A stretch of DNA of 64,000 nt. Source: Naegleria gruberi (lineage: Eukaryota). This document shows, one piece after another, positions 1 to 61,260 of the stretch. The translations under genes and the position numbers were made by a program. The DNA lies in NCBI GenBank assembly GCA_000004985.1, contig GG738847.1. One strand, given 5' to 3'. The first letter of the stretch is position 1. Each line of letters begins with the position of its first letter. The notes under the pieces were generated by a model. That model saw only the letters and a program-made list of their open reading frames with translations. It ran no database searches and had not been told where the DNA came from.

Positions 1-327
1 CAAACCCAAACCCAAACCCAAACCCAAACCCAAACCCAAACCCAACCCAAACCCAAACCCAACCCAAACCCAAACCCAAACCCAAACCCAAACCCAAACC
101 CAAACCCAAACCCAAACCCAAACCCAAACCCAAACCCAAACCCAAACCCAAACCCAAACCCAAACCCAACCCAAACCCAAACCCAAACCCAAACCCAAAC
201 CCAAACCCAAACCCAAACCCAAACCCAAACCCAAACCCAAACCCAAACCCAAACCCAACCCAAACCCAAACCCAAACCCAAACCCAACAAACCCAAACCC
301 AAACCCAACAAACCCAAACCCAAACCT
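1..327. repeat. Telomere: about 54 tandem CCCAAA units on the + strand, with occasional CCCAA variants. This is the C-rich strand of a left chromosome end (G-strand TTTGGG).
   Basis: A perfect 6-nt periodic repeat begins at base 1. The C-rich strand reading 5'->3' into the chromosome is the orientation expected at a left telomere. Confidence 0.9.
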
Positions 328-395
328 AAAAACCTAAAAACCCAAACCTAAAAACCCAAACCTAAAAATCTAAACCTTTGAACCTAAAGTTGAAA
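328..395. repeat. Degenerate telomere-associated repeats (CCTAAAAA, CCCAAACCTAAAAA) forming the telomere to subtelomere transition.
   Basis: The CCCAAA unit decays into aacctaaaaacc-type variants and then loses periodicity. Confidence 0.7.
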
Positions 396-26764: not shown

Positions 26765-29068
26765 TCAAGCAAAAATCATTCTTACTGCAATAACATCACC
26801 TGCTTCTGATTTCTTAAACAAACAAGCATAACAACCATCACCATAACCAGATGATGTAATAATTCCATAAGGAGCAGCCATTTTTGAAGGATAATGGAGC
26901 TTTTGCATTTCTTTGGACAAGTAATTAGACCATTCAGATCCGTATGAAAGTTTAAATGCTTTTTCCAATAGAGATTTCTGCTTGAATGGTAAACCAAATG
27001 CTTCCATATTGTTGTAATACTTTAAATCAAAAAAGCTTGCAACTCCAGCATCAACTCCAACACCAAACTTCATTAAATACCATCCATCTTCATTCACTGG
27101 ATCTGGGTAGTAATCTGTCTTTGTTGCTTCTCCTTCTAGTTCTCTATAAATGTCATCAGAGTATTTGAATAAATTTGGATTCTTTGTAATTTCATCATAA
27201 CAATCAGAATGAATGGCAATTATTTGTGCTGTCAAGTAATTGTCAATTCCTCCACCATCTACATAATTTTTTTCCTTATTGGTAGTAATCCATTTCCATG
27301 TACCAGGTCTAACATTCTCAATAATTACAGGATTTCCATCTGCAAGTGAATCATTGGCAATAATTGATGTACTTTCAACTTTGAATTCTTGATCATCAAA
27401 CAAGATTTCATATTCCTTTCTTGTATTATTTGTATCATTCATGATATCATTAGTGGAAGTACTTTCAGTTGTTGTCAATTCTTTACAACCAACAATGCCA
27501 ATAAATGCAGTAGATGTCAAATCAACACCTGAATTTGACATAAACCCACTACCAATACAGGCTACAGAAATTTGTTTTGAAGATTTTTTACAATCCTTCA
27601 TGTCCTTGATATGATTCTTATATTCCAATATATCACTCCAACTAGATTTGTACATTATTGGAGCTCCAAGATAATTTGCAAAATCTTCAGGTTCCAATTC
27701 AATATAATCTTTGGAAATAATTTCTCCCAACTTGTCCATGTGATCTCTACATCTCAATCCTGCAATAATTTCAAAGTCATTATATTTTTCTTCTTTGATT
27801 TGGTAAGCTTTGGTAATTCTGGCACCAACTACATTTACACATGACATGGAAGGAGTTACTAACTTTGGAACATATACATCAAATTCTGAATCCTTCTTCA
27901 ATTTTTCTAAATATTCTTCCTCATTGAATATTTCCTTAATCTTTTCACTTTTGACTTGTTCAATTTCACTAATGCTAGTCACCTTGTTATATTGATTGTT
28001 GTTGTCCTTTAAAATAATTGTTTTAGAAATTGGGGAATATAAATAGGTAAGAGAACCCTTGATTGGTAATTTTCTCAATTCACCTTCTCCTTTTGAATTT
28101 TGAATATTAAATAATTGTGGAGTATAGGCAAAACAATCAATTGTCTTATCTGCAGATGAGCTAACTAGTAAACCAAAATTATCCAATCTTACAATGGAAA
28201 GTATTTCACAAATCCAATCTAAATGCTTGACAAGTACAATTTGAGTACCTTCTTGATTCCAAACCAATTCGTATAAACATCTATTTTGATGAACAAAAAC
28301 TCTCAATCTATGACCCTCCAAGTATGGAATAATTTTGCAATTGTCATTAAATCCAGTTCCTGTAAATGAAAATGTCTTATCACATTCAGTTGAGCATGTA
28401 ATTGGATTTTCAACCTTAAATTTACCACTTTCCAAATCATATTGATAAAAAGTACCATTATAATATAATGCATTAATAGAGTATTTTCTATTGAGTACAT
28501 CTTCACATGGAAGAGTAATTAATAATGTAGTATTTCTCAATGGAAATTGAGGTCTAACATAGGGTGGAAGTTCACTACATTTTTCAACAGTAAATTCATT
28601 GTAATTACCTCTCTCAATAACTGGTTCGCCTCCACTGCACGATAAAATCATTGAACCACCAACAAATCCAATACCTTCTTCATTAATTCTTTCAAGAATA
28701 TTCACTTGTTCCTTCTCAAAGGTTTCAACATTGTTAAATTTGAACCAGGAACGATTAGAATGTATACAATTAGAACCAGTTCTGGACGATGTTGTTGCAT
28801 AGGCACGAATGGTAGGCTCATCATTATCACTTCTGACAGACAATTGATACATCAAATGACTTTCCCAATCCAATTTAATTTCGCTAACACATTCAAATAT
28901 ACGATTTTTATCAGAGGCCAATTTGACATCTTCAACGTGAGCAATTTTCTTCTTGATCACATGGTCATAATCAGACAAGTCCAAGAGGTAAAATTCATGA
29001 TCAGAGGTTACATAACCATCCAAACACTTTCCGAATGGTTGAGTAGTGAAGGTAGATTGGTTGAACAT
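26765..29068 (-). CDS. Hypothetical 767-aa protein with no recognised domain. The C-terminal third is Gly/Asp-rich (DGGGIDNY...GVGVDAGV...SSGYGDGCYAC).
   Basis: Long intact single ORF. Confidence 0.45.
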   Translation of the reverse strand: MFNQSTFTTQPFGKCLDGYVTSDHEFYLLDLSDYDHVIKKKIAHVEDVKLASDKNRIFECVSEIKLDWESHLMYQLSVRSDNDEPTIRAYATTSSRTGSNCIHSNRSWFKFNNVETFEKEQVNILERINEEGIGFVGGSMILSCSGGEPVIERGNYNEFTVEKCSELPPYVRPQFPLRNTTLLITLPCEDVLNRKYSINALYYNGTFYQYDLESGKFKVENPITCSTECDKTFSFTGTGFNDNCKIIPYLEGHRLRVFVHQNRCLYELVWNQEGTQIVLVKHLDWICEILSIVRLDNFGLLVSSSADKTIDCFAYTPQLFNIQNSKGEGELRKLPIKGSLTYLYSPISKTIILKDNNNQYNKVTSISEIEQVKSEKIKEIFNEEEYLEKLKKDSEFDVYVPKLVTPSMSCVNVVGARITKAYQIKEEKYNDFEIIAGLRCRDHMDKLGEIISKDYIELEPEDFANYLGAPIMYKSSWSDILEYKNHIKDMKDCKKSSKQISVACIGSGFMSNSGVDLTSTAFIGIVGCKELTTTESTSTNDIMNDTNNTRKEYEILFDDQEFKVESTSIIANDSLADGNPVIIENVRPGTWKWITTNKEKNYVDGGGIDNYLTAQIIAIHSDCYDEITKNPNLFKYSDDIYRELEGEATKTDYYPDPVNEDGWYLMKFGVGVDAGVASFFDLKYYNNMEAFGLPFKQKSLLEKAFKLSYGSEWSNYLSKEMQKLHYPSKMAAPYGIITSSGYGDGCYACLFKKSEAGDVIAVRMIFA

Positions 29069-29888
29069 TGCGCGTCTTTTTTTTAAAATTCGATTTTATC
29101 AATTCTTGGAAGGCGGGAAAAGGGGTTCAATATTTCCACCAAAAAGTGGTTTTCGGCCAAGTTCTGCGATTTACAAAATTGATTTGTAAAATTGCTTACA
29201 ATGGTAACATTTCTGAATTGTTTGTATACAACACAACATACAGTTGCGTTCAGCATTGGATGAAACAGACTGTAATTGAAAATGAAAAATGGTTAAACTA
29301 TTTTCAAATAAGTAATTACATCATAGCCTTATTTAAAGGCTATGGCCAATTCAAGGCGGGTGGAACGGCTAAGGCGGTTGAGTTCCTCGGCTAACAGGCA
29401 AAGGTTCATCTAACTGACCTCGTTGTAACGAAGTGCTTTGAAATCTTCCAGGACACACCAACTTGTTGTTGTAAACAATGGTCCAATTAAACAAATTAGC
29501 TTTATAAAAGAACTCACAGAGGGCGCCCGTTAAATGTACAATTTTGTTGAAAAAAAAAACCCTATCACCTCATCACCTCAGCAAATAAGCAACAAAAGCA
29601 TCTAAGGCTGGAGTTAATATTCGGCACATAATTTGATAACAGTACTACTAGGTCAAACATAAGAGCCTCGAGTTATCATTATTGTCCTGTGGACAATTTT
29701 CATCACGCTTAATATCTCTGCCAAAAAAGTCCCAAACACTCTCATATATCTCNCAAGTTGTTATTCAAGAACACTCTCCAATACATTATCATAATTAACA
29801 ACCAGACAGGTAGCAATTTTTAAACCTCAACCTTACCATAACAACAAAACAATAATCACAACAAGAACAACAACAAGAATACAACAAT

Positions 29889-32800
29889 ATGCAATCAATG
29901 CATCTCGTTGCCTCATCAAGGGATTTTGGTGATCAACAGTCTGCTGTGTCGGATGGTCACAGTGCCACATCAAGTACCACACATCATACAACAAATTCAA
30001 CATGGGTTAAGATACAATCCTCAATAGCAACCTTAACAGTTGCACTGCAGGATAAAAAGAGAAAGACCTCTTGGAAATACTTTGCTCTCATAGTAATAAT
30101 GAATATTTACCTCATGTGGACATCTATTTTTCTCCCAACTCTAGGTTCTGCATATAATTGGGGAGAATATGGTGATTGGGTCTTCAAGGTAGCAAACTAT
30201 CCAATTACGTTCTCACTAGACTTGATACCATACATAGCCATGGTAGTACTGGAAATTGTTTCAATAGTATACGTGCTGTTGTATCTGACTACATCATACC
30301 TAGCATTTCAAGCAGTCAATAATTCATCCAAACAATCTGTAAGGATAAAGAGAATGTCCATCATTCTAAGCTGGCTGACAGTTTTCCTAACACCAGTCAT
30401 GTCCTTCATCTTTACCAGCTTTATTGATTGTAACCTATCCTCATTGGTAACAATAAGTGGATATGATGAACAGAAGTACACTCTTCAAAGATTTCCAACA
30501 CAGGCATGTTATTCAGTGGAGAATATTGCATTCATAGTAATAGGATTTGTGGGGCACTTTCTACTGGTAGGGTCGGTGTTTTATGCACATTTGGCCATTG
30601 CCAACATGCATCCTCACAACATGGCACCACTAAGAATGGAATCAAGTTTTTCCATCTCTTGCTTGATGTCATTTAATAGCTTTGAACTTTTGTGCATGTA
30701 TGTGATACCACCTCAATATGCATACATCAGATCCATAACTCATCTTATTATTTCCATAGGTTGGATTATTATCTTCTTTAATCAACTTCCATTCTTCAAG
30801 AGAGTTGAAAATTCAATCTATTTGGGTGTTGGAGGAGCAAAGATTGGAGCATCAACAGGTTCCCTCATTTCAGCAGCTGCTAATTCGACAAATAGTTGGC
30901 CATTTGGATTAGGAATGATGGGTATGACTCTAGCCCTTATAACAATTGGATTTTTGGTTGGATTGATTGTGGGAGAATTATATACAAGGATTGTTTTGAG
31001 AATGGTTGAAAAGCTCATTCACAATATTATTCTGGAAAAGCAAAGCTCAGAGACTGTAAATATATCACTGGATAGAGCTATTGAGAGGGATGCCCTCACA
31101 ATCTACCAAGAAATGGATGAGAGCAACCTGCTGCGTCAGTTAGGCCTGTTTTTAAGATTTTCAATTGTTAACACCAAGACCAATTCTATCAATCCAGAAA
31201 TTAATATGCCTCTCTCCTTTGTTAAAGGCATTGCAAATCAGAAATCCTTCTCAGAGAGTGGTCTCTTGATTAGTTCCGCTCTTATAATTGCCTACGATTG
31301 GAATGATGAAAATTCATTAATATTTGCAACCTTATTATTGAAAAAGGCTGCCAAACATGCTAATATTCTTCAAAAGGTGGTTGTTTCGGAGAGAATTACA
31401 GAAATTGAAATTGATGCGACAGAATCAAAGAATGGAAAGAATATGGTTGAAGTAAAGCACATTCTTGAAAGAATGACTAGATATCAGGAGGAGTTAAAGG
31501 CTCTCCATAGATTATTTTGGAAAGAGTTAATGAATGAAATTCCAAACATGCAAAAAGTCGAACAAACCAATAGAAGAATAGCCTACCTCACTGATATCTG
31601 TCATGTAACCTACTTGAATGTCATGTCAAACTATAGTAAGGAAAAGACTGTATTGAGATCGTATGCCTCATTCCTTGATGCCTATCTATTTGATAAGGAA
31701 CTTGCCCAGGAATTATTCCAAGAAGCAACTAGTATTGAAGAGGATGAATCAAATAAGAGAAACCGATCTAAAAATCACTATCTCAGAAATGTATCAAAAT
31801 TCAAGTTTCTTAGTAAGGGGAGTATTCACCCTTCACATATCGGTGATGACTTTGTAAGAAATAGCTTTGATTCTGCCGGCAATAGGGATATAGACATGGA
31901 GAAGGATGATGGTATGTCCTTTAGTGGTATTGAAGGAAAAGAAGTTTCCAAGAAGGAAACTATTTTCAAATCGGCTCTCAGAGTGCCTCCCTCACACAAA
32001 TTTCAAATGTTCTCTCTATATATTGTCATTTTCCTCTCTCTGTTGGCTACTGTTGTAGGATCGGTTCTTGCCTACTTCCTCTCGTTCAATATTGCTGGTG
32101 AAATACCAATGCAGTTCGATACTTGTAGAAGTACCATGTCAACCGCTGGTATTTTACGTCAACTAAGAATGCATCAATCCTCTTTACAAGTTTACAATTC
32201 TAGTTACAAAACCACTTCGACACTTGATATGTTTCACAATGACTTTATGGATAATCATGATATCAGACTGGAGAATTACATCAACATGTTGAAGAGAATA
32301 CCTTACTATGCTCAAGCTGCACTCTATACACCAGCCATGTACGAATTCTACACCAAGGATAATATTTCCGTGGTGGTACCATTCATTCCAGAAACATCAA
32401 CTGTACAAAATTTCATTTCAAGCTTTAAGAGAAATGCCTCAATGGAAGAAATTAACAATATCATTATTAGAATCTCTGAGAATATTCTTAATAATTGGCA
32501 AGACAAAGATTACAATACTCCACTTTCTAACTTCGAATTCATGTACATGTGGCAAAATAAGATTCCTTTAGGAGGTTTCTACACTACCTTTTGTGAAAGT
32601 TTGATTAATGCCAACTATAGTGATAGTAGTTCAAAACTTCAAGCCATGATGATTTGTTTGCTGAGTATTTGCTTTACCTATTTTGCTCTCTTCGTTGTAT
32701 TTTGTGGGCTGTCAAGATTGGAACTTACTTCCACTGAGAGAATTCTCAAACTCTATGAAAAAGTTTTAAATAAGAACGTCATTGGTAAGGCCTATCATGA

Positions 32801-35148
32801 TTTGGGAAGCAATGATGATGCAACTATCCACCTCTCAAAGAATATCTTTCTCATTCCAAAGAATTTCATCCCACTATTCGGATTTGTTTGTGTTGTTCTA
32901 GTATTTTTGAGTTTTGGTATGATGTACTATGAAACCAGTGTCAATGTTAACAATACTCATGTTTCTGGCTCAGCCATCAAGGATGGTACTGCACTTATCA
33001 GAGTTGTTCACAGAATGGTCTATAGAGTGAGTGAATACTTTACCTATTTCAGTTTGCCTTCAGGTCTTCCAAATAATGATCCACTATTAACCACTCAGAC
33101 AGAATTGATTGGTTATAGAGCTAACGTAAAGGCATATCTTACTGAATTGAACAACCGATTCAATATGCTTGTCTATGGTTATGGTGGTAAACAAGAAGTT
33201 GTTGGAACCTATGAAAAAGTAGATCAACTTTTGAAAGGAGTTGCAAATTGCTCTCATTCTTACCCAAATGCGACATTCATTGAAGAGTTCCAACACTGCT
33301 ACGGTATTGAGAAGATGATTTCCATATTTGCCTCTGATACAGCTCAATTGAACGAAAGATTTTGGAATGCTGGATTCTACAATCGAACCATTGAGGCCTA
33401 TACTCTGTTGTTCAAGCTCTTTGCTATGGGTGATAAACTCTCAGACCAGATGAACATATTCATGACAACATTTGTCCAATATGCCTCCACACCAAGTGTA
33501 ACTATTATTTCAGTCTTTACCATATTTAGTCTACTTTCCTTACTATTGCTCAATTATCAATTGTACTTATCAATGGTGTCTCACTTTAGCCACGTTCAAT
33601 CTTTAAGATCAATGCTAAATTATATCCCTCTCAATATTCTTGATAGTAATGAGCATTTGAGAAACTTTATCTTGTATAATTCTGTACCAAATGGATTGGT
33701 TGAACTCTTCCAAAGAAAGAACAAGAAACAAAATAGTGGCGACTCATCTAATGTGAGAAGTATTCTTAATGCCTCTGTAGATGGTTCCATCTTGTGTAAT
33801 GAATCTGGTTTGATTGACTTGATAAATCCTGCAGCCCAAAGAATGTTTGGTTATAAACAATCTGATATTGTAGGTGCTCAAGTATTCACAATGTTCGAAA
33901 AGAAGGATAGAGAATTACTGGAAAAGACTGTTGCCGATCTCAAAGCACAAGCCAAAGGAAATGGAGAAGCCAATGCTGGTGAGTCCTTAGAATTGGAATG
34001 TGTAAGAAGAAATCAAACAACCTTTCCATCCTCTGTGAACATCTTTGTGGCTCTCTTTGATGGTATTCCAGTTTTGGCATTCATCATTAAGGATGTAACA
34101 CAAGAAAAGAAGCACAATGCATTATTGGCTGAAGAAAAATCCAAATCCGAACATTTGTTGAGAAACATCTTACCTGAAGCTGTTGCAGCCAAGTTGAAAG
34201 CAGGAGAGACATTCATTGCCGAAAAGTTTGGAGACATTACATGTTTCTTCTCCGACATGGTGGGATTTACAAGTTTGAGTTCAGATATGAATCCTACTGA
34301 ACTGGTAGGCATGTTGAATAATATTGTTAATGGATTTGATGCCTTGACTGATAAATATCATTTGGAGAAGATTAAGACCATTGGTGACGCATATTTTGTA
34401 AGTAATTTTCACATTTCTTAACCATTCAAACATTTTTCTTCCTGTATTATGCAAAAATCTTTAAAAGGCTGTTGGTGGACTGCACGCAAATGCTACTTCT
34501 GACCATCCGGAAAGAACTCTTCGATTTGCAATAGACACTTTCACTGTTATTCATGATTACAATATTACAGCCATGAACCCAATTTCTAAACAAATTAATA
34601 TTCGTATTGGTCTCAATACTGGTGGTGTGAGTAAGTAGCAGTATTAATTATTTAGTCATCCTAATAATATATTTCCTAAATTCTTAAATTGAATTGCATT
34701 TTCACACACGTGAATTAATTTGTTTTCAACAGTTGCTGGTGTCATTGGTACGAAGAAATTTGCCTATGATTTGTGGGGAGATACCATTAATACAGCCTCT
34801 AGAATGGAATCTACTTCAAAACCAGGTCGTATTCAAGTCAGTCGATCCACCTATGAAAGAGTTTACGATTTAGGATTTGATTTTGAAGAAAGAAAAGTAG
34901 AAGTGAAAGGAAAGGGATTATGCAATACCTATCTACTCAATTCAAGACATCACACGAATGCAGTGATTGAAAATGATGAACCATCAAATATACAAATATT
35001 AGAATTTAAATCTCATGAATCCCATGATCACTATCAATCAAAAGTAAAAACAGCCCACTCCATAGCTACAATTGAAGAAATCAAGACAAAACCTCCAACA
35101 CCAACTACAGAAGATTTGAAAAGAGCTTCATCAGTACAACAAATGTAA
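29889..35148 (+). CDS. Membrane adenylyl cyclase (about 1695 aa) with two clusters of transmembrane segments, a PAS domain and one class III cyclase catalytic domain. It has 3 exons at 29889..34397, 34468..34630 and 34733..35148, with introns of 70 and 102 nt.
   Basis: Cyclase motifs are split across the exons: FSDMVGFTSL...EKIKTIGDAYF, then AVGGLHANA...RIGLNTGGVI, then AGVIGTKKFAYDLWGDTINTASRMES. The substrate-specifying Lys (EKIKTIGD) and Asp (YDLWG) indicate ATP rather than GTP. The PAS-like region is ILCNESGLIDLINPAAQRMFGYKQSDIVGAQVFTMF. Confidence 0.8.
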
Positions 35149-35652: not shown

Positions 35653-38409
35653 ATGGTCAAGAAACTCTTTGGCATCTCCTCCAACACTTCCAGCCACCAA
35701 CAAAACGTTCATCAACCGGCCACCACCTTCATGGTCGTTGATGATCCCTCCGTTTTGCAAGGTTTCTACAATGAACAACAACAAAATCAACAACACCACA
35801 ACGCCCTCCTCAATAATAGTACAAACAATGCCGCCTTTTTTAATACCACAGGACTCTCACAGCAACAACAACAGCAATTTCTTATTAATCAGTTCGCATC
35901 TGCTGCGTCATCAGTATCTTCTTCTTCTTCTGTTGGTGGTGGTGGAGGAGTTGGAGGAGGCTTCTCATCAAGCCTTCCGAATAATAATAACATGATGAAT
36001 ACAAGTAATAATACAAATAATAATAACTTTTCATCATTTGGTATTGGCAATAACGGTAACATTTTCATCACTAGTAATAATAATAATAATATGAATAATA
36101 ATATGAATAATAACATGATGATTAGCAATATGAATAATAATATGAATAACAATAATAATAACGTCAATAACTTTATGATGCAAACATCGTCATCATACAA
36201 TACTAATAATAATAACAATATCTTTCGTTTAGATGACAATAACAATTCACGTGCGTTCCTATTCGGCCAAGGTTCTTCATCCACTTCAACTTCCAATAAT
36301 AATAATGGTTTTATTGTAAATAATGTTAATACTAACAATAATAATACAAATATAAATACAAATACAAATACTACTACTCAACAATCACAACAACAACCAC
36401 CACAACAACTTGTAAATATCGTTCTAAATAATAATGGTGTATCTAAATATGCTCCGGTTATCAAGTGGTCAGTGGCTCCTAGTACAGCTTATTCATTTTC
36501 CAATAATCAATCAACTGCCAATATGATTAGTAATGAAGCTGACAATATCATGAGTCAAACATTGATTGATCCAGTATTTGGACCAGATGACTGCAAAATT
36601 TCTAAAGGAAACTTCTTAACTAATACGAAACTGTTTTGTCTATCTGAACAAACTTTGAGAGATTTTCAATATTTGAGACCAAGTGTTCAAACTGATAACT
36701 TGTATCACTTGGCAGAGATGGAAAATGAGAGTTCTTGGCTTCCAAATGATAGAATTGCACCAAAGAAAACTACTCATAATTGTCTAGTTAATGATTGGTT
36801 GGTTTTCTGTAGTCAAGATCCTCAATTATTGAAATTAGTTGGAAGATACATCAATGGAGCATCTAATACTGATGTTCAATTGTTTGCTGACTTTGTTCTA
36901 GTCACTAGTAATAATCACGATGAGGATAGTAGAGAATCTTTATTTGGAAAACAAAGATTCAAGGGAGGAATTCCATTACAAATGAAATTGGTCAGAAATT
37001 CTGCAAATAATGCAAATATGACACCACTCTTGTATTTTGAAAAGAGGATTAACAGAGAATCAGTTAATAATAAGGATGCACCAAGTGCAAGTGGAATGGG
37101 AGGCAAACGTGTTGCCCAACTTCGTATCTATTTGAAAGATAGTAATCAAGAGATTTGTTTGGTGCACTCTGAAGGTTTTTGGGTGAGAACCAAGAGCAGA
37201 GAGGAGATTCATAGAACTAGTCCAAGAGAACTTCAAGTTCAAGCTCCACCACAAGAAACAACTCAAAAGAAGAAGAGACATGCATTCTATGGCCTCTTCC
37301 AAGGTAATGGTGGCAGAGGAGTGAAGAGAGAGCAAAATGCAATTGTTGTCGAGACTCCTACTAGAGTTTTCATGGATCACCAAGGTAATTTCACCCAAGG
37401 TCTTACTGAAATTGTTTCAGCTCAACAATTCCAACAACAAGATTTGAGTCAAATGAGCAATAGTGCTAGCAGTTACGGATCCAACTCTTACTTGAGCAAT
37501 AGTGGTGGCTTTGTACTTCAAGGAGTTTCACCAATTTCCAATCAAATCCAAATGCAAAATAATGGAAATGAATCTGAAGTCTCCTCATTGAGTTCAACAC
37601 CAAATAATGCCAGTAACTTGTCCGTATCTCAACACAGTTTATCAACCAATGATATTGCAGAAATTTTAAGAGGATTGTCAATTTCCCTTCCAAACAATCA
37701 AGGAGGAGGTGGAGGAGGCCATCATTCTCGTAATTCTTCCTTCACATCACCAAACGGATTGGCAAGCAGTTGTAGTTCAACATCCAGCACTTCATATCTT
37801 CAAATCAATAACAATAATAATTCATCTGATATGGGACTAAATTTCCAATCACTTATTGAACCACAAGGGAGTGAATCTATTGACACTACCATTAACAAGT
37901 TGGATGCAGCCATTAACTTCTTCTCAACCATGAAAGATGCTTATATGAAGCTTAAGAATAATCAAACTTCGGATATGCCAAACATGGGAGAATTGTATGC
38001 TCAATTCAGCTCTTCATTACAAGATAAGAGAAAAGACAAGGGATTCAAGAGAGTGAGACAAGGAAATGAATCAGGAGCTGTTTCTCCACAATCCAATCAC
38101 TCTGGAAAGAGTTTGACGGTTCCTTTCAGAACAACATCAACCTCAGCTCCTAACACTTCCGCTCTTAACATGAATGGTTCAAGTCCACTAGTCAACAATG
38201 TCATTTCAAATGTTGGCTATAACCCAAGCGCCTCTTTCAGTGGTAATGGTAATAACAATAATGTTATTAATATGCCATTCCAAAATACTACCTTCATCGC
38301 CCATCCTTCAATCAACAACTTGCCAATGAAGAATTTTGATGGAGATTTGCCACATACACTGTTCAACAGTGCTGATACAGATGCCACCCAAGATATTTTC
38401 AACATGTAA
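35653..38409 (+). CDS. Asn/Gln/Ser/Gly-rich low-complexity protein (918 aa) with a central ordered region of about 300 aa of unknown family.
   Basis: Single ORF with polyQ, polyN and polyG runs. The central segment (about aa 260-560, ...NDWLVFCSQDPQLLKLVGRYINGASNTDVQLFADFVLVTS...) is not low complexity. Confidence 0.55.
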   Translation: MVKKLFGISSNTSSHQQNVHQPATTFMVVDDPSVLQGFYNEQQQNQQHHNALLNNSTNNAAFFNTTGLSQQQQQQFLINQFASAASSVSSSSSVGGGGGVGGGFSSSLPNNNNMMNTSNNTNNNNFSSFGIGNNGNIFITSNNNNNMNNNMNNNMMISNMNNNMNNNNNNVNNFMMQTSSSYNTNNNNNIFRLDDNNNSRAFLFGQGSSSTSTSNNNNGFIVNNVNTNNNNTNINTNTNTTTQQSQQQPPQQLVNIVLNNNGVSKYAPVIKWSVAPSTAYSFSNNQSTANMISNEADNIMSQTLIDPVFGPDDCKISKGNFLTNTKLFCLSEQTLRDFQYLRPSVQTDNLYHLAEMENESSWLPNDRIAPKKTTHNCLVNDWLVFCSQDPQLLKLVGRYINGASNTDVQLFADFVLVTSNNHDEDSRESLFGKQRFKGGIPLQMKLVRNSANNANMTPLLYFEKRINRESVNNKDAPSASGMGGKRVAQLRIYLKDSNQEICLVHSEGFWVRTKSREEIHRTSPRELQVQAPPQETTQKKKRHAFYGLFQGNGGRGVKREQNAIVVETPTRVFMDHQGNFTQGLTEIVSAQQFQQQDLSQMSNSASSYGSNSYLSNSGGFVLQGVSPISNQIQMQNNGNESEVSSLSSTPNNASNLSVSQHSLSTNDIAEILRGLSISLPNNQGGGGGGHHSRNSSFTSPNGLASSCSSTSSTSYLQINNNNNSSDMGLNFQSLIEPQGSESIDTTINKLDAAINFFSTMKDAYMKLKNNQTSDMPNMGELYAQFSSSLQDKRKDKGFKRVRQGNESGAVSPQSNHSGKSLTVPFRTTSTSAPNTSALNMNGSSPLVNNVISNVGYNPSASFSGNGNNNNVINMPFQNTTFIAHPSINNLPMKNFDGDLPHTLFNSADTDATQDIFNM

Positions 38410-44448: not shown

Positions 44449-44751
44449 TTTTTTAATAATTTAATAATTTTTAAATTATTAATTATTGGAAATATTCATT
44501 TCTAGAATGAACATTCATTCACAATCATAATACTTTCAATTTAACAGACTGAAAGATAATTCAATAGTTTCTAATTTCCTTAAATGAGATTATTATAAAG
44601 CTATTCGAAACAAATGTCCTTAATATCTTTAATTTGATTTCAATCCCAATATTTCTCATTATTATTATTCAATTATCATAATCAAACATTCACACGATTA
44701 TTATCAAATTTCCTGTCAACTGCCATTTTTCATCTAAAAAAAAACGTCAAA

Positions 44752-45930
44752 ATGCACAAAAAGACTCTCATCTTGGGCGTTGCTTTATTGCTCTTCGCCT
44801 TGTTCGCTGTTGTAGCAAGAGCTGCCGAAGAACCAGAATTCGAAATGACAGATGCCCTCGACAGATTAACTTCTGGCATGGATTGTGCCAATGAAGAAGA
44901 AGCTTTGGCTGATTCCTTGGTTGAATCTTTCATCAGATCATCAGGTGGTAGAAGCAGTGGTGGTTCCAGAGGTGGTTCCAGAGGTGGTTCTAGAGGAAGC
45001 TCCAGAGGATCATCAAGAGGAGGTTCCAGAGGTGGTTCCAGAGGATCATCATCTAGAGGATCATCAAGAGGTGGTGGTAGAAGAGGATCATCTTCTTCAT
45101 CAAGAGGTAATGGAAGAAGAGGTGCTTCTTCATCATCAAGAGGTAATGGTAGAAGATCCAATGCTAATTCTGGTGGTGGAAGAAGAGGTGGAAACACTAG
45201 AGGAGGAAACAGAAGAGGAGGAAATACTAGAGGTGGAAACAGAGGTGGAAACAGAAGAGGTGGAAATACTAGAGGAGGTAATAGAAGAGGTGGAAATACT
45301 AGAGGACCATCTAGAACTAGACCATCTACTAGACCAACCAGACCATCAACCAGACCAACTACAAGACCAACAACTAGACCAACTACTAGACCAACTGCTC
45401 CAGTAGCTGCTAGACCAACTGTCAATACTCCTGCTGGTCCAGTCGGTTCAAAGATTGCTGCTGCCATTTCTTCTAGATATGGAAATGTTGCCAAGCCAGG
45501 TGGTTATTGTGCTAGAGCTGTCAGAACTGCTGTTGAAGGTAAGTGAATTGTTGGAGTTTTTGGAGTTTTAATTCTCTATTAATATTCGAATAATTCTAGC
45601 TGCTACTGGCAAGACCATTCAAAGAACTACCAGTGCTAAGGATTATGGTCCAAGTCTTGAAAAGGCTGGATTCAAGAAGGTTTCTGGTCCACCAAAGGTT
45701 GGTGATGTTGCCATCTTTGGATCTGTTCCTGGACATCCTCACGGAGTAAGTAGTTATGAAATATTTCACACCAACTAATCTTATTAATTATGCTAATGAT
45801 GTTTCTTATATAGCATATGCAAGTATACACTGAAAAGGGATGGGTCAGTGATTTCAAACAAAGAGATCAATTCCCAGGTCAAGCTTACAGAAGTAGAAAT
45901 GCTCAAATGACAACTTACAGATCTGAATAA
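44752..45930 (+). CDS. Secreted CHAP/NlpC-P60-type cysteine amidase or peptidase with a long Gly/Arg/Ser-rich and Pro/Thr-rich linker (about 349 aa). It has 3 exons at 44752..45538, 45600..45745 and 45814..45930, with introns of 61 and 68 nt.
   Basis: Signal peptide MHKKTLILGVALLLFALFAVVARA, then SRGG, RRGGNTRGGN and TRPTTRP repeats. The catalytic region is split by two GTAAGT introns: GGYCARAVRTAVEG, then AATGKTIQ...GDVAIFGSVPGHPHG, then HMQVYTEKGWVSDF. A Cys...His pair with the GDV.IF and GH..V pattern is typical of CHAP domains. Confidence 0.7.
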
Positions 45931-59809: not shown

Positions 59810-60892
59810 ATGCTTGCACCACAGAAACGAGTTAGTGATTTTGGAGATGGTGGACAAATAGATCAAGTTCAAGTTGAAGAAACCACACCAAATCTTATAA
59901 CTTCCATCATACGATTGAAACAATTTCGCATCAAAGGACGATCATTTGAATTTCAAGAAGTGTTCGAAAATCCAAAAAGTGATACTTTGGTTTGTAAATG
60001 TTTGGGTGATGATGGACATGAATACGTTGTTAAAATTATTAAACTAATTGATGGAATATTTCCAAGTAATGATCCAAATGATACTTATTCAGATGGTTAT
60101 CAAGTAGGAGAATGGAGATTTGCTGAAACTGTGAAACAGTTGTTCGATTCTAGTGTGGTAACTTATGAGGTTTCGGAACTAATTGGTGAAGAAATTGTAC
60201 TTGTATCAGAATACAGAGGAATGGATATGAAAAAATATGGAAAGAACAAATCAGGAAAATTGTTTTTATGTGAAGCGATTCAAATTTTAATTAGAATTGC
60301 TAATGCATTATGCCAACTCTATAAGCATAATATAATTCATAGTGATATCAAACCTGCAAATATCTTTATTACTTTTGAGCCAACCAGTTATTCATTTGAT
60401 GTCATTGATGCTACATTGGGTGATTTGGGAATAGCCAGAACTGTTTTATCAAAAGGTCAGCCAATTTATTCATCTAATATATTTTCTACTCCTGATACTG
60501 CACACACATACTTAACACAGCACGGAACATGTGGTTATATTGCACCAGAATGTTTTAAAGGAGAACAATGTTTATTAAGTGCTGTGAAAAAAAATGGCTT
60601 CGCATTTGAATTTGTTGATGAATTATTAAGAAAAGATAGAGAAATTGTATTGGAAGCAGTTAAACAAAATGGATATGCACTTGAATATGCTGATAGGTCA
60701 TTTAGAAAAGATAGAGAAATTGTACTGGAAGCAGTTAAACAAAATGGACGTGCACTTGAATTTGTTGATGAATCATTAAGAAAAGATAGAGATATTGTAT
60801 TGGAAGCAGTTAAACAAAATGTCTGGGCACTTGAATGTGCTGATGAATCATTAAGAAAAGATAGAGAAATTGTATTGGAAGTAGTTAAATGA
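59810..60892 (+). CDS. Protein kinase-domain protein with C-terminal DUF4116-like 24-aa repeats (360 aa as annotated). It ends at an in-frame TGA, and the same frame stays open for 5 more repeats to 61279.
   Basis: Kinase motifs are YVVKIIK (VAIK-like), IIHSDIKPANIF (catalytic loop), DLGIARTV (DFG-like) and GTCGYIAPECF (APE). The repeats read ...LRKDREIVLEAVKQNGxALE(Y/F)(A/V)DES... ORFs 59810..60892 and 60950..61279 share one frame and are separated by one TGA at 60890-60892. Confidence 0.65.
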   Translation: MLAPQKRVSDFGDGGQIDQVQVEETTPNLITSIIRLKQFRIKGRSFEFQEVFENPKSDTLVCKCLGDDGHEYVVKIIKLIDGIFPSNDPNDTYSDGYQVGEWRFAETVKQLFDSSVVTYEVSELIGEEIVLVSEYRGMDMKKYGKNKSGKLFLCEAIQILIRIANALCQLYKHNIIHSDIKPANIFITFEPTSYSFDVIDATLGDLGIARTVLSKGQPIYSSNIFSTPDTAHTYLTQHGTCGYIAPECFKGEQCLLSAVKKNGFAFEFVDELLRKDREIVLEAVKQNGYALEYADRSFRKDREIVLEAVKQNGRALEFVDESLRKDRDIVLEAVKQNVWALECADESLRKDREIVLEVVK

Positions 60893-61260
60893 GATGGACG
60901 CGAACTTTGCTATGTTGATAAGTTATTAAGAAAAGATAGAGAAATTGTATTGGAAGCAGTTAAACAAAATGGCTGGGCACTTGAACATGTTGATAAATCA
61001 TTAAGAAAAGATAGAGAATTTGTATTGGAAGCAGTTAAACAAAATGGACGTGCACTTGAATATGCTGATGAATCATTGAGAAAAGATAGAGAATTTGTAT
61101 TGGAAGCAGTTAAACAAAATGGACATGCATTTGAATATGTTGATAAATCATTAAGAAAAGATAGAGAATTTGTATTGAAAGCAGTTAAACAAAATGGATG
61201 TGTATTTGAATATGTTGATGAGTCATTAAGAGAAATTATATTAGAAGCTGTCGTTAATGC
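60570..61260 (+). repeat. Tandem array of about ten 72-bp coding repeats (24-aa DUF4116-like units), nearly identical to each other.
   Basis: The direct repeat ...gaaattgtattggaagcagttaaacaaaatgg.gcacttgaatatg.tgatgaatcattaagaaaagatagag... recurs with period 72. Confidence 0.8.

What the first reader, a model, noticed from the sequence alone, without database searches (positions are those of the whole stretch)
29889..35148. Adenylyl cyclase with an unusual multi-TM + PAS + single catalytic domain architecture
There are six or more N-terminal TM helices and a second TM cluster around aa 700-1230. A PAS-like domain follows, then one class III catalytic domain split by two introns. Specificity residues (Lys in EKIKTIGD, Asp in YDLWGDT) predict ATP as substrate. 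A single catalytic domain implies the enzyme is a homodimer. This differs from 12-TM two-domain ACs, single-TM receptor cyclases and soluble cyclases. It suggests a ligand-gated or light/redox-gated (PAS) cAMP source.
Basis: partly seen in the sequence, partly recalled or inferred. Interest (0 to 1): 0.6.

Follow-up and report, generated by a model that had tools for sequence, protein, structure and literature searches.

The report
TmcB-like receptor adenylyl cyclase, Naegleria
This is a real three-exon Naegleria gruberi gene for a large membrane-bound adenylyl cyclase, in which a whole "TmcB-type" membrane protein with two bacterial-sensor-like outer domains is fused to a PAS domain and one complete catalytic domain. 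It belongs to an uncharacterised gene family found across the Heterolobosea, so it is an interesting variant rather than a new kind of enzyme.

Summary
Window 29889-35148 (+) holds one gene of three exons. It is identical to an N. gruberi "predicted protein" of 1695 aa.

Domain order:
- A cluster of 6-8 TM helices.
- A cytosolic TPR_TmcB repeat.
- Two TM-loop-TM modules, whose ~190-aa loops model as four-helix bundles. The best structural match is the NasR NIT domain, followed by periplasmic sensor bundles.
- A PAS domain.
- A coiled-coil/CTE linker.
- One class IIIa cyclase domain.

All six catalytic residues are present (D1456, D1500, K1496, D1570, N1577, R1581). The enzyme is therefore predicted to be ATP-specific and competent as a homodimer.

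The PAS is closest to the heme PAS domains of FixL and DosP, but the proximal His is a Leu. No His or Cys is conserved there, so heme-type redox gating or LOV-type light gating through the PAS is not supported.

The same architecture occurs in Naegleria (three species, at least 8 N. gruberi paralogs), Willaertia, Acrasis and Pharyngomonas. The N-terminal 1245 aa correspond to a complete dictyostelid TmcB-type protein. Dictyostelium tmcB is a reported regulator of cAMP signalling.

Best reading: a receptor-type homodimeric adenylyl cyclase. It is a new variant of a known kind, of moderate interest.

The parts
29889..35148 (+). Whole gene (ATG to TAA): 1695-aa TmcB-like/PAS/class III adenylyl cyclase
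   Evidence: The spliced translation is identical to P0001, N. gruberi 'predicted protein'. An upstream in-frame stop lies at 29853.
29889..34397 (+). Exon 1 (aa 1-1503)
   Evidence: Single ORF. It ends in phase 0 before GTAAGT.
34398..34467 (+). Intron 1 (70 nt, GTAAGT...AG), after ...GDAYF inside the cyclase domain
34468..34630 (+). Exon 2 (aa 1504-1557 plus 1 nt)
   Evidence: My first donor choice (34625) removed 2 residues relative to AC9 and was corrected.
34631..34732 (+). Intron 2 (102 nt, GTAAGT...CAG), within ...NTGGV|IAGVIG
34733..35148 (+). Exon 3 (to the stop codon TAA at 35146-35148)
30072..30971 (+). First TM cluster, aa 62-361: six strong hydropathy peaks, eight helices in the AF2 model. 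Outside loops carry the invariant WGEYG..W.F..NYP motif and the Cys181/Cys207 pair.
   Evidence: hhalign to the Heterostelium TmcB-type protein gives 98.3%.
30999..31808 (+). Cytosolic helical-repeat region, aa 371-640. The Pfam TPR_TmcB core is aa 518-622 (31440-31754).
   Evidence: 67.2 bits against a cut-off of 27. All-helical in AF2. hhalign to TmcB-type P0157.
31758..31958 (+). Poorly conserved, probably disordered linker, aa ~624-690
   Evidence: AF2 pLDDT below 50 at model residues 575-637.
32004..32711 (+). Module A, aa 706-941: TM7, a ~190-aa helical-bundle loop (Cys746/Cys902, conserved R760 and Q763, four NxS/T sites), then TM8
32712..32858 (+). Short cytosolic loop, aa 942-990, with conserved L.K..IGK.YH motif
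32859..33557 (+). Module B, aa 991-1223: TM9, a ~190-aa helical-bundle loop (Cys1121/Cys1137, four NxS/T sites), then TM10
33558..33752 (+). Juxtamembrane segment, aa 1224-1288, with invariant R.M(L/F)NY motif and nearly constant length
   Evidence: A similar motif ends the dictyostelid TmcB-type protein.
33753..34103 (+). PAS domain, aa 1289-1405, ending in a DVT.EKK motif (DIT in most family members). Leu1343 occupies the position of the FixL heme His.
34104..34217 (+). Helical linker plus cyclase-transducer-element-like segment, aa 1406-1443 (LLRNILPEAVAAKL, aa 1423-1436). Length is constant in the family.
   Evidence: It aligns with the segment preceding AC9 C2. No indels in 10 of 11 family members. 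CTE concept: PMC5995499.
34218..34935 (+). Class III cyclase catalytic domain, aa 1444-1625 (spans both introns): D1456, K1496, D1500, D1570, N1577, R1581
34936..35145 (+). Non-conserved C-terminal tail, aa 1626-1695
   Evidence: conservation ends after the ...KHH motif.

Best explanation
The gene encodes a membrane-bound, receptor-type class IIIa adenylyl cyclase that works as a homodimer. The first ~1245 residues are a complete TmcB-type polytopic membrane protein. They comprise a 6-8-helix TM cluster, a cytosolic TPR-like repeat, and two TM-loop-TM modules. Each ~190-aa loop is predicted to be extracellular and to fold as a four-helix bundle continuous with its TM helices, like the periplasmic sensor bundles of NarX/NarQ, Tar and NIT-domain proteins.

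The last TM helix leads through a conserved juxtamembrane segment into a PAS domain that shows no conserved heme or flavin-adduct ligand. Next come a fixed-length helical linker with a cyclase-transducer-like element, then one catalytic domain carrying both metal Asp, the ATP-specifying Lys/Asp pair and the transition-state Asn/Arg.

Proposed mechanism: an extracellular signal bound by the helical bundles shifts TM10. The PAS and coiled-coil linker relay this shift to the dimeric catalytic core, which changes cAMP synthesis.

Shown here: the gene structure, the domain order, the catalytic residues, and the distribution of the family.

Inferred, not shown: topology, dimerisation, sensing by the bundles, and the direction of regulation.
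For: - Gene model and identity.
- Domains.
- The catalytic hexad aligns to AC9 C1 and C2. It is invariant in 11 close relatives and intact in 30 of 35 family representatives. The specificity Asp is kept in 35 of 35 and the Lys in 34 of 35.
- The best PDB sequence matches are class IIIa enzymes: AC9, AC5, AC8 and mycobacterial Cya.
- The PAS-to-cyclase linker has constant length and a CTE-like motif.
- The AF2 model of aa 695-1248 is confident (pLDDT 86.5, pTM 0.81).
- Each predicted outside loop holds a Cys pair that is invariant among seven family members, and the two large loops hold four NxS/T sites each.
- The architecture is conserved from Naegleria to Pharyngomonas.
Against: - There are no experimental data.
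- No Pfam sensor family (4HB_MCP, NIT, PilJ) is detected by sequence.
- Topology rests on hydropathy, AF2 helices, Cys pairs and glycosylation sequons only. Sequons also occur in segments predicted to be cytosolic.
- The function of the first TM cluster and of the TPR region is unknown.
- The PAS could still bind a ligand that does not need His or Cys.
- Some paralogs have degenerate catalytic residues, so heterodimers are possible in the family.
Confidence: 0.55

Rival explanations
1. The PAS domain is the primary sensor (O2/redox through heme, or light through flavin), and the membrane part is only an anchor.
For: The closest solved relatives of the PAS, by single sequence and by family profile, are the heme PAS O2 sensors FixL and DosP (E 1.5e-8; E ~1e-14). 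LOV proteins appear further down the list.
Against: The proximal His of FixL aligns with Leu1343, a hydrophobic position in the family profile. There is no NCRFL-type Cys. Across 16 diverse members the only invariant PAS residues are N, E, F, D, T and E, which look like scaffold or DIT-motif residues.
Confidence: 0.1
2. The TmcB-like membrane region has its own activity as a transporter, channel or lipid-handling protein. The cyclase reports on or is coupled to that activity, as in ciliate and apicomplexan K+-channel adenylyl cyclases and P4-ATPase guanylyl cyclases.
For: The first cluster has conserved polar residues in or next to the membrane helices (R281, H285, N308/S309, N332, E363). Stand-alone TmcB-type proteins exist without any cyclase, so the module has a function of its own. 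Precedents for such fusions are established knowledge (for example PMC13466520).
Confidence: 0.2
3. Regulation comes from inside the cell. The cytosolic TPR_TmcB repeat is a docking site for a protein partner, and the membrane helices only localise and dimerise the enzyme.
For: TPR/HAT-like repeats usually mediate protein-protein binding (established knowledge). The TPR region is the most strongly conserved link to dictyostelid TmcB.
Against: This does not explain the two conserved, Cys-paired, sensor-like loops on the other side of the membrane, nor the conserved TM10-PAS coupling.
Confidence: 0.12
4. It is a guanylyl cyclase or a catalytically dead pseudo-cyclase.
For: Public names include 'Guanylate cyclase domain-containing protein', which is generic Pfam naming. 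A few family members do have degenerate catalytic residues.
Against: This protein has the full D-K-D-D-N-R set with the Lys/Asp pair typical of adenylyl cyclases, aligned residue for residue with AC9.
Confidence: 0.03

Closest known systems
Mycobacterial 6-TM class IIIa adenylyl cyclases (Rv1625c / M. intracellulare Cya; PDB 5O5K, 7YZ9, 1YK9)
   Same: One catalytic domain per chain with all six canonical residues. It acts as a homodimer, is anchored by a polytopic membrane domain, and has a helical/CTE segment before the catalytic core. Sequence match E ~1e-44 to 1e-46.
   Different: The membrane part here is 10-12 TM of TmcB type with a large cytosolic TPR region and two extracellular bundles. 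A PAS domain is inserted between the membrane and the CTE. The protein is about four times longer.
Mammalian membrane adenylyl cyclases (AC9, AC5, AC8)
   Same: Best PDB sequence matches (E 4e-58). The class IIIa catalytic fold, the CTE-like LLRNI(L/I)P..VA..LK segment, and the Lys/Asp/Asn/Arg residues of C2 and metal Asp residues of C1 all align.
   Different: The mammalian enzymes carry two complementary half-domains (C1, C2) in one chain and two 6-TM blocks. Here a single domain combines both sets of residues. There is no evidence of G-protein regulation.
Dictyostelid TmcB ('tiny macrocysts protein B') family, Pfam PF25474
   Same: The TPR_TmcB domain scores above the cut-off. hhalign gives 98.3% probability over TM4-TPR to a Heterostelium TmcB-type protein. 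The overall layout is the same: a TM cluster, TPR, then four TMs with two long loops and a similar motif after the last TM. Dictyostelium tmcB is described as a regulator of the cAMP pathway (Muramoto et al. 2005, cited in PMC8516963 and PMC12750705).
   Different: The dictyostelid proteins stop just after the last TM and have no PAS or cyclase. Similarity of the loop modules was not detectable by sequence.
Bacterial periplasmic four-helix-bundle and NIT sensor domains (NasR NIT, NarX/NarQ, Tar/Tsr, PcaY, PilJ, TorS)
   Different: Sequence identity is 6-12% and there is no Pfam hit. Both bundles are in one chain. The host is eukaryotic and the ligand is unknown. Generic bundles score almost as well.
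PAS-coiled coil-cyclase cassettes (soluble guanylyl cyclase; FixL/DosP-type PAS)
   Same: A PAS is followed by a fixed-length helix and a class III catalytic domain. The PAS is closest to FixL/DosP and ends in a DIT-type motif.
   Different: No H-NOX domain. The heme His is absent. The specificity is for ATP and the protein is membrane-bound.

Membership tests
Class III nucleotidyl cyclase (Pfam PF00211), subclass IIIa adenylyl cyclase | Catalytic domain detected above the curated threshold | tested here: met
   170 bits against a cut-off of 21.9, aa 1444-1625, covering profile positions 3-182 of 183.
Class III nucleotidyl cyclase (Pfam PF00211), subclass IIIa adenylyl cyclase | Two metal-binding Asp | tested here: met
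   D1456 and D1500 align with AC9 C1 D399 and the Asp of LGDCYY.
Class III nucleotidyl cyclase (Pfam PF00211), subclass IIIa adenylyl cyclase | Substrate-specifying Lys plus Asp (ATP), rather than Glu/Cys (GTP) or Lys/Thr (IIIb) | tested here: met
   K1496 (EKIKTIGD) and D1570 (YDLWGD) align with the same residues of AC9 C2. They are conserved in 34 of 35 and 35 of 35 family representatives.
Class III nucleotidyl cyclase (Pfam PF00211), subclass IIIa adenylyl cyclase | Transition-state Asn and Arg | tested here: met
   N1577 and R1581 in DTINTASRMES.
Class III nucleotidyl cyclase (Pfam PF00211), subclass IIIa adenylyl cyclase | Cyclase transducer element / helical segment directly N-terminal to the catalytic core | tested here: met
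   LLRNILPEAVAAKLK aligns with LLRNIIPYHVAEQLK of AC9. Its length is invariant in the family.
Class III nucleotidyl cyclase (Pfam PF00211), subclass IIIa adenylyl cyclase | Dimeric enzyme that converts ATP to cAMP | not testable with these tools
   Needs an enzyme assay and oligomer analysis. Only monomer models could be made.
Mammalian-type 12-TM pseudo-heterodimeric adenylyl cyclase | Two catalytic half-domains (C1 and C2) in one chain | tested here: not met
   There is only one PF00211 stretch in 1695 aa.
TmcB family (Pfam PF25474 TPR_TmcB; Dictyostelium TmcB/TmcC) | TPR_TmcB domain above the curated threshold | tested here: met
   67.2 bits against a cut-off of 27, aa 518-622.
TmcB family (Pfam PF25474 TPR_TmcB; Dictyostelium TmcB/TmcC) | Homologous polytopic TM cluster N-terminal to the TPR | tested here: met
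   hhalign of the family profile against Heterostelium P0157 (itself TPR_TmcB at E 1e-47): probability 98.3%, 416 columns covering TM4 through the TPR.
TmcB family (Pfam PF25474 TPR_TmcB; Dictyostelium TmcB/TmcC) | C-terminal four TMs enclosing two long loops | tested here: inconclusive
   The hydropathy layout is the same in P0157 (646-664, 1109-1127, 1313-1331, 1500-1518), with a similar motif after the last TM. No significant sequence match was found for these modules.
TmcB family (Pfam PF25474 TPR_TmcB; Dictyostelium TmcB/TmcC) | Stand-alone membrane protein without an enzymatic output domain | tested here: not met
   Here PAS and a cyclase domain follow the last TM. P0157 has neither.
Heme-PAS O2 sensors (FixL / DosP) | PAS fold with closest similarity to this clade | tested here: met
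   E 1.5e-8 with the single sequence and ~1e-14 with the family profile.
Heme-PAS O2 sensors (FixL / DosP) | Proximal heme-ligating His in the F-alpha helix | tested here: not met
   The His of FixL (…DRSRHDSY…) aligns with Leu1343. The position is hydrophobic across the family.
LOV blue-light PAS | Flavin-adduct Cys in a GxNCRFLQ motif | tested here: not met
   The PAS has no such motif. No Cys is conserved in the E-alpha region of 16 members.
Four-helix-bundle / NIT extracytoplasmic sensor domains | Helical bundle located between two TM helices, with structural similarity to known sensor bundles | tested here: met
Four-helix-bundle / NIT extracytoplasmic sensor domains | Sequence-level membership (Pfam 4HB_MCP, NIT, PilJ, TarH) | tested here: not met
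   No such family at E <= 0.1. The A1 profile found nothing among PDB sequences.
Four-helix-bundle / NIT extracytoplasmic sensor domains | Binds a ligand and modulates the output | not testable with these tools
   Needs binding and activity assays.

The most novel reading that the evidence does not exclude
The fusion acts as a 'Rosetta stone' for the whole TmcB family. On this reading, TmcB-type proteins (stand-alone in dictyostelids and reported in Carpediemonas) are cell-surface receptors with tandem bacterial-style four-helix-bundle sensors, whose normal output is direct control of an adenylyl cyclase. In Heterolobosea the receptor and the cyclase became one polypeptide, creating a previously undescribed class of eukaryotic receptor cyclase. 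That class expanded to at least 8 paralogs in N. gruberi, possibly with different ligands. This would explain why Dictyostelium tmcB mutants are affected in cAMP signalling during sexual development.
Probability: 0.3. Interest if true: 0.65.

Novelty: new variant of a known kind. Interest (0 to 1): 0.45.

Why it matters
Naegleria species carry a very large cyclase repertoire: at least 81 according to PMC9928731, and about 108 in the genome paper as I recall it. What those enzymes sense is essentially unknown. cAMP is suspected to control encystation in amoebae (PMC5055082).

This family offers a concrete, testable receptor-to-cAMP module that is conserved in the pathogen N. fowleri and has no human counterpart in its membrane part.

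It also gives a mechanistic hypothesis for the otherwise opaque TmcB family, namely direct coupling to an adenylyl cyclase. It is a further example of bacterial-type transmembrane signalling logic (helical-bundle sensor, PAS, signalling helix, output) in a eukaryote.

The value is moderate. The catalytic chemistry is conventional, and the gene is already deposited, though unnamed and unstudied.

Tried and rejected
1. My first splice model used the donor at 34625. It gave 1693 aa with a 2-residue gap against AC9 in GLNTG..VAGVIG. It was replaced by the GTAAGT donor at 34631, which reproduces the deposited protein exactly.
2. 'The N-terminal region is a separate gene' is rejected. A single 1503-codon ORF links it to the cyclase, and the full architecture recurs in at least six species.
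3. Internal duplication of the two TM-loop-TM modules: hhalign gave probability 0.8%, so there is no detectable sequence relation.
4. Foldseek of the whole N-terminal model against the PDB found nothing at E <= 0.001. A weak Tweety-homolog hit (E 0.86) was not pursued.
6. The afdb50 library was unavailable.
7. The word-indexed protein search timed out with profile A1. With the TPR profile A3 it returned one fragment. With the N-terminal sequence it found only Naegleria.
8. The N-terminal profile against PDB sequences gave 0 hits.
9. Literature searches for a description of this architecture found none. The original tmcB paper is not held.
10. Looking up the paralog locus P0004 failed: it is not on record.
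11. The last cluster look-up, on low-scoring fragments, gave only unnamed metagenomic pieces.


Full report
**What is there**

The window is AT-rich eukaryotic DNA. Coordinates 29889-35148 on the + strand hold one gene.
- A single ORF of 1503 codons (29889-34397) is followed by two short exons.
- Both introns have GTAAGT...AG boundaries: 34398-34467 (70 nt) and 34631-34732 (102 nt).
- My first choice of donor for intron 2 removed two residues relative to solved cyclases. The corrected model gives 1695 aa.
- That product is identical to a deposited Naegleria gruberi 'predicted protein' (P0001) on a 941-kb scaffold.
- An in-frame stop lies 12 codons upstream of the ATG.
- The N-terminal and catalytic parts are therefore one gene. 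The refutation condition 'separate gene' is not met.

**Domain anatomy**

Pfam finds three domains:
- Guanylate_cyc at aa 1444-1625 (E 5.5e-50).
- PAS_9/PAS at aa 1289-1405 (E 4e-14).

Hydropathy gives six strong TM segments between aa 64 and 361. Four more lie at 710-728, 921-939, 993-1011 and 1203-1221. A peak at 1382-1400 is PAS beta-sheet, not a TM segment.

An AlphaFold2 model of aa 50-1245 (7-sequence alignment, mean pLDDT 73) shows eight helices in the first cluster. It also shows an all-helical 371-640 region, a disordered 624-686 stretch, and long helices that run from the last four TM segments into the two ~190-aa loops.

Whether the first cluster has six or eight helices, the count is even. 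This places the N-terminus, the TPR region, the 942-990 loop and the PAS-cyclase part on one side of the membrane. The loops 85-114, 177-209, 731-918 and 1014-1202 fall on the other side.

Each of the three larger outside loops holds a Cys pair that is invariant among seven family members: C181/C207, C746/C902 and C1121/C1137. The two long loops hold four NxS/T sites each. This fits an extracellular or lumenal location. It is an inference, not a demonstration.

**The two long loops**

- Periplasmic four-helix-bundle sensor domains: Adeh_2942 kinase 13.2, PcaY 13.0, PilJ 12.9, TorS 12.0, McpN 12.0, NarQ and NarX 11.3, Tar 11.3, Tsr 11.2.

Three caveats apply.
- Sequence identity is 6-12%, and no Pfam sensor family is detected.
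- The two modules are not detectably related to each other by sequence.

The first TM cluster found no convincing structural relative. The N-terminal profile matches no solved sequence.

**Catalytic domain**

The best solved relatives are class IIIa enzymes: AC9 (E 4e-58), AC5, AC8 and mycobacterial Cya. The alignments give this mapping:

| Residue | Role | Aligns with |
|---|---|---|
| D1456, D1500 | metal binding | the two metal Asp of AC9 C1 |
| K1496, D1570 | ATP specificity | the corresponding residues of AC9 C2 |
| N1577, R1581 | transition state | the corresponding residues of AC9 C2 |

One chain therefore carries everything that the mammalian C1/C2 pair divides between two domains. All six residues are invariant in 11 close relatives and intact in 30 of 35 family representatives. 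The specificity Asp is kept in 35 of 35 and the Lys in 34 of 35.

The prediction of an ATP-specific enzyme able to act as a homodimer is well founded on established structure-function knowledge of class III cyclases. Activity and oligomeric state could not be tested.

The segment LLRNILPEAVAAKL (aa 1423-1436) aligns with the helix preceding AC9 C2. It corresponds to the cyclase transducer element described for class III cyclases (PMC5995499). The PAS-to-cyclase linker has the same length in 10 of 11 relatives.

**PAS domain**

The closest solved PAS domains are the heme O2 sensors FixL and DosP. This holds for the single sequence (E 1.5e-8) and for a 16-member family profile (E ~1e-14).
- The proximal His of FixL aligns with Leu1343, a hydrophobic position throughout the family.
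- There is no LOV-type Cys motif.
- The only invariant PAS residues are N, E, F, D, T and E. These include the C-terminal DIT-type motif (D-I/V-T..EKK) that joins PAS domains to signalling helices. The role of that motif is from my own knowledge.

I therefore read the PAS as a relay or dimerisation element rather than a heme-type redox sensor or LOV-type light sensor. An unconventional ligand cannot be excluded.

**Family and relatives**

An exhaustive profile search with the N-terminal 1196 aa found 435 proteins at E <= 1e-3 and 106 at E <= 1e-30.

Mapping six region-specific HMMs onto the 150 best hits showed about 30 representatives that carry all six modules, from the TM cluster through to the cyclase domain, and a further ~15 that lack only an N- or C-terminal part. 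The remaining hits are shorter fragments.

Named members come from these organisms:
- N. gruberi, with at least 8 paralogs.
- N. fowleri and N. lovaniensis.
- Willaertia magna.
- Acrasis kona, where the protein is annotated 'adenylate cyclase'.
- The deep-branching Pharyngomonas kirbyi.

The family is therefore as old as Heterolobosea.

The only named full-length hit without PAS or cyclase is a Heterostelium protein, P0157.
- It is a bona fide TmcB-family member (TPR_TmcB E 1e-47).
- It aligns with the Naegleria profile over TM4 through the TPR at 98.3% probability.
- It has the same hydropathy layout, including four C-terminal TMs with two long loops.
- It ends just after the last TM with a motif resembling the invariant R.MLNY.

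The first 1245 aa of the Naegleria protein thus correspond to a whole TmcB-type protein.

[quoted passage not shown] The source is Muramoto et al. 2005, Mech Dev 122:733, as cited in PMC8516963 and PMC12750705. The paper itself is not held. A physical fusion of this module to an adenylyl cyclase in another lineage is the kind of evidence that suggests a direct functional link. That link remains an inference.

**Mechanism and rivals**

The best-supported reading (confidence about 0.55 for the full chain of inference) is a receptor-type homodimeric adenylyl cyclase. The proposed path runs from the extracellular helical bundles through TM10, the juxtamembrane segment, the PAS and the fixed-length helix/CTE to the catalytic dimer.

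| Rival | Confidence | Main objection |
|---|---|---|
| PAS is the primary cofactor-based sensor | 0.10 | Contradicted by the missing ligand residues |
| Membrane region is a transporter or channel coupled to the cyclase | 0.20 | No fold support, though conserved polar intramembrane residues and stand-alone homologs keep it alive |
| Regulation from inside through the TPR region | 0.12 | Does not explain the conserved outside loops |
| Guanylyl cyclase or dead enzyme | 0.03 | Full D-K-D-D-N-R set with the Lys/Asp pair |

**Known or new**

The catalytic part is a textbook class IIIa domain. The gene is already in public databases with these Pfam domains precomputed. Naegleria is known for a very large cyclase repertoire (PMC9928731).

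I found no paper that describes or studies the TmcB-PAS-cyclase architecture, its helical-bundle loops, or its link to tmcB. The literature library is incomplete, so this is not proof of absence.

I rate it a new variant of a known kind (membrane-bound homodimeric class III cyclase with a novel receptor module), with interest 0.45. Its interpretation is partly supported. The adenylyl cyclase call, the single domain, the homodimer and the unusual architecture stand. Heme- or LOV-type light/redox gating via the PAS does not.

Noticed in passing
window 1-330 (and up to ~377): About 57 tandem copies of CAAACC sit at the very start of the window, with strong GC skew. A very AT-rich stretch and a 468-N gap (1040-1507) follow. 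This looks like a telomeric repeat (G-strand GGTTTG) at a scaffold end.
   Followed up: no
window 60587-61231, inside ORF 59810-60892 (+): A 75-nt unit repeated 8.6 times at 85% match, encoding a 25-aa protein repeat (…NGRALEYVDKSLRKDREIVLEAV…). The family was not identified.
   Followed up: no
window 44955-45396: Several overlapping short-period repeats encode Arg/Gly-rich low-complexity sequence, in a region with ORFs on both strands (44730-45546).
   Followed up: no
window 35653-38409 (+): Immediately downstream of the cyclase lies a 918-aa ORF, extremely rich in Asn/Gln/Ser runs, with no Pfam match.
   Followed up: partly
window 26765-29068 (-): The upstream neighbour is a 767-aa ORF whose C-terminal 200 aa match DUF4241 (E 2.6e-28). 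Other neighbours are a Zn2Cys6 protein, an Ank-BTB protein, an EF-G-like GTPase, a RhoGAP-WW protein and an EamA transporter. None has an obvious functional link to the cyclase.
   Followed up: partly
L001 3001-8233 (N. lovaniensis ortholog P0003) compared with window 34398-34732: The ortholog's annotated introns inside the cyclase domain lie at different positions (after CVGGL, after GTKK, after SRM) from the two N. gruberi introns (after GDAYF and within GGV|I). It also has two more introns upstream. Intron positions are therefore not conserved between the species, or some of the models are imperfect.
   Followed up: partly
family members P0031 (Willaertia), P0136 (Pharyngomonas), P0043, P0038, P0100 (Acrasis): Five of 35 family representatives have degenerate catalytic residues. 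Some defects are C1-like (transition-state Asn/Arg lost in P0031) and some C2-like (metal Asp lost in P0136). This hints that some paralogs work only as heterodimers or are regulatory.
   Followed up: partly
P0008 (N. lovaniensis, 2222 aa): This family member carries an extra ~530-aa N-terminal Mem_trans (PF03547, auxin-efflux-carrier-like) region. It is either a further fusion or two merged gene models.
   Followed up: no
window 32166-32177 (aa R760, Q763): An Arg and a Gln in the first extracellular helix after TM7 (LRxxRxxQ) are at least 90% conserved across 16 diverse members. They are candidate ligand-contact residues, reminiscent of the conserved Arg of nitrate-sensor bundles. That comparison is from memory and was not tested.
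   Followed up: no
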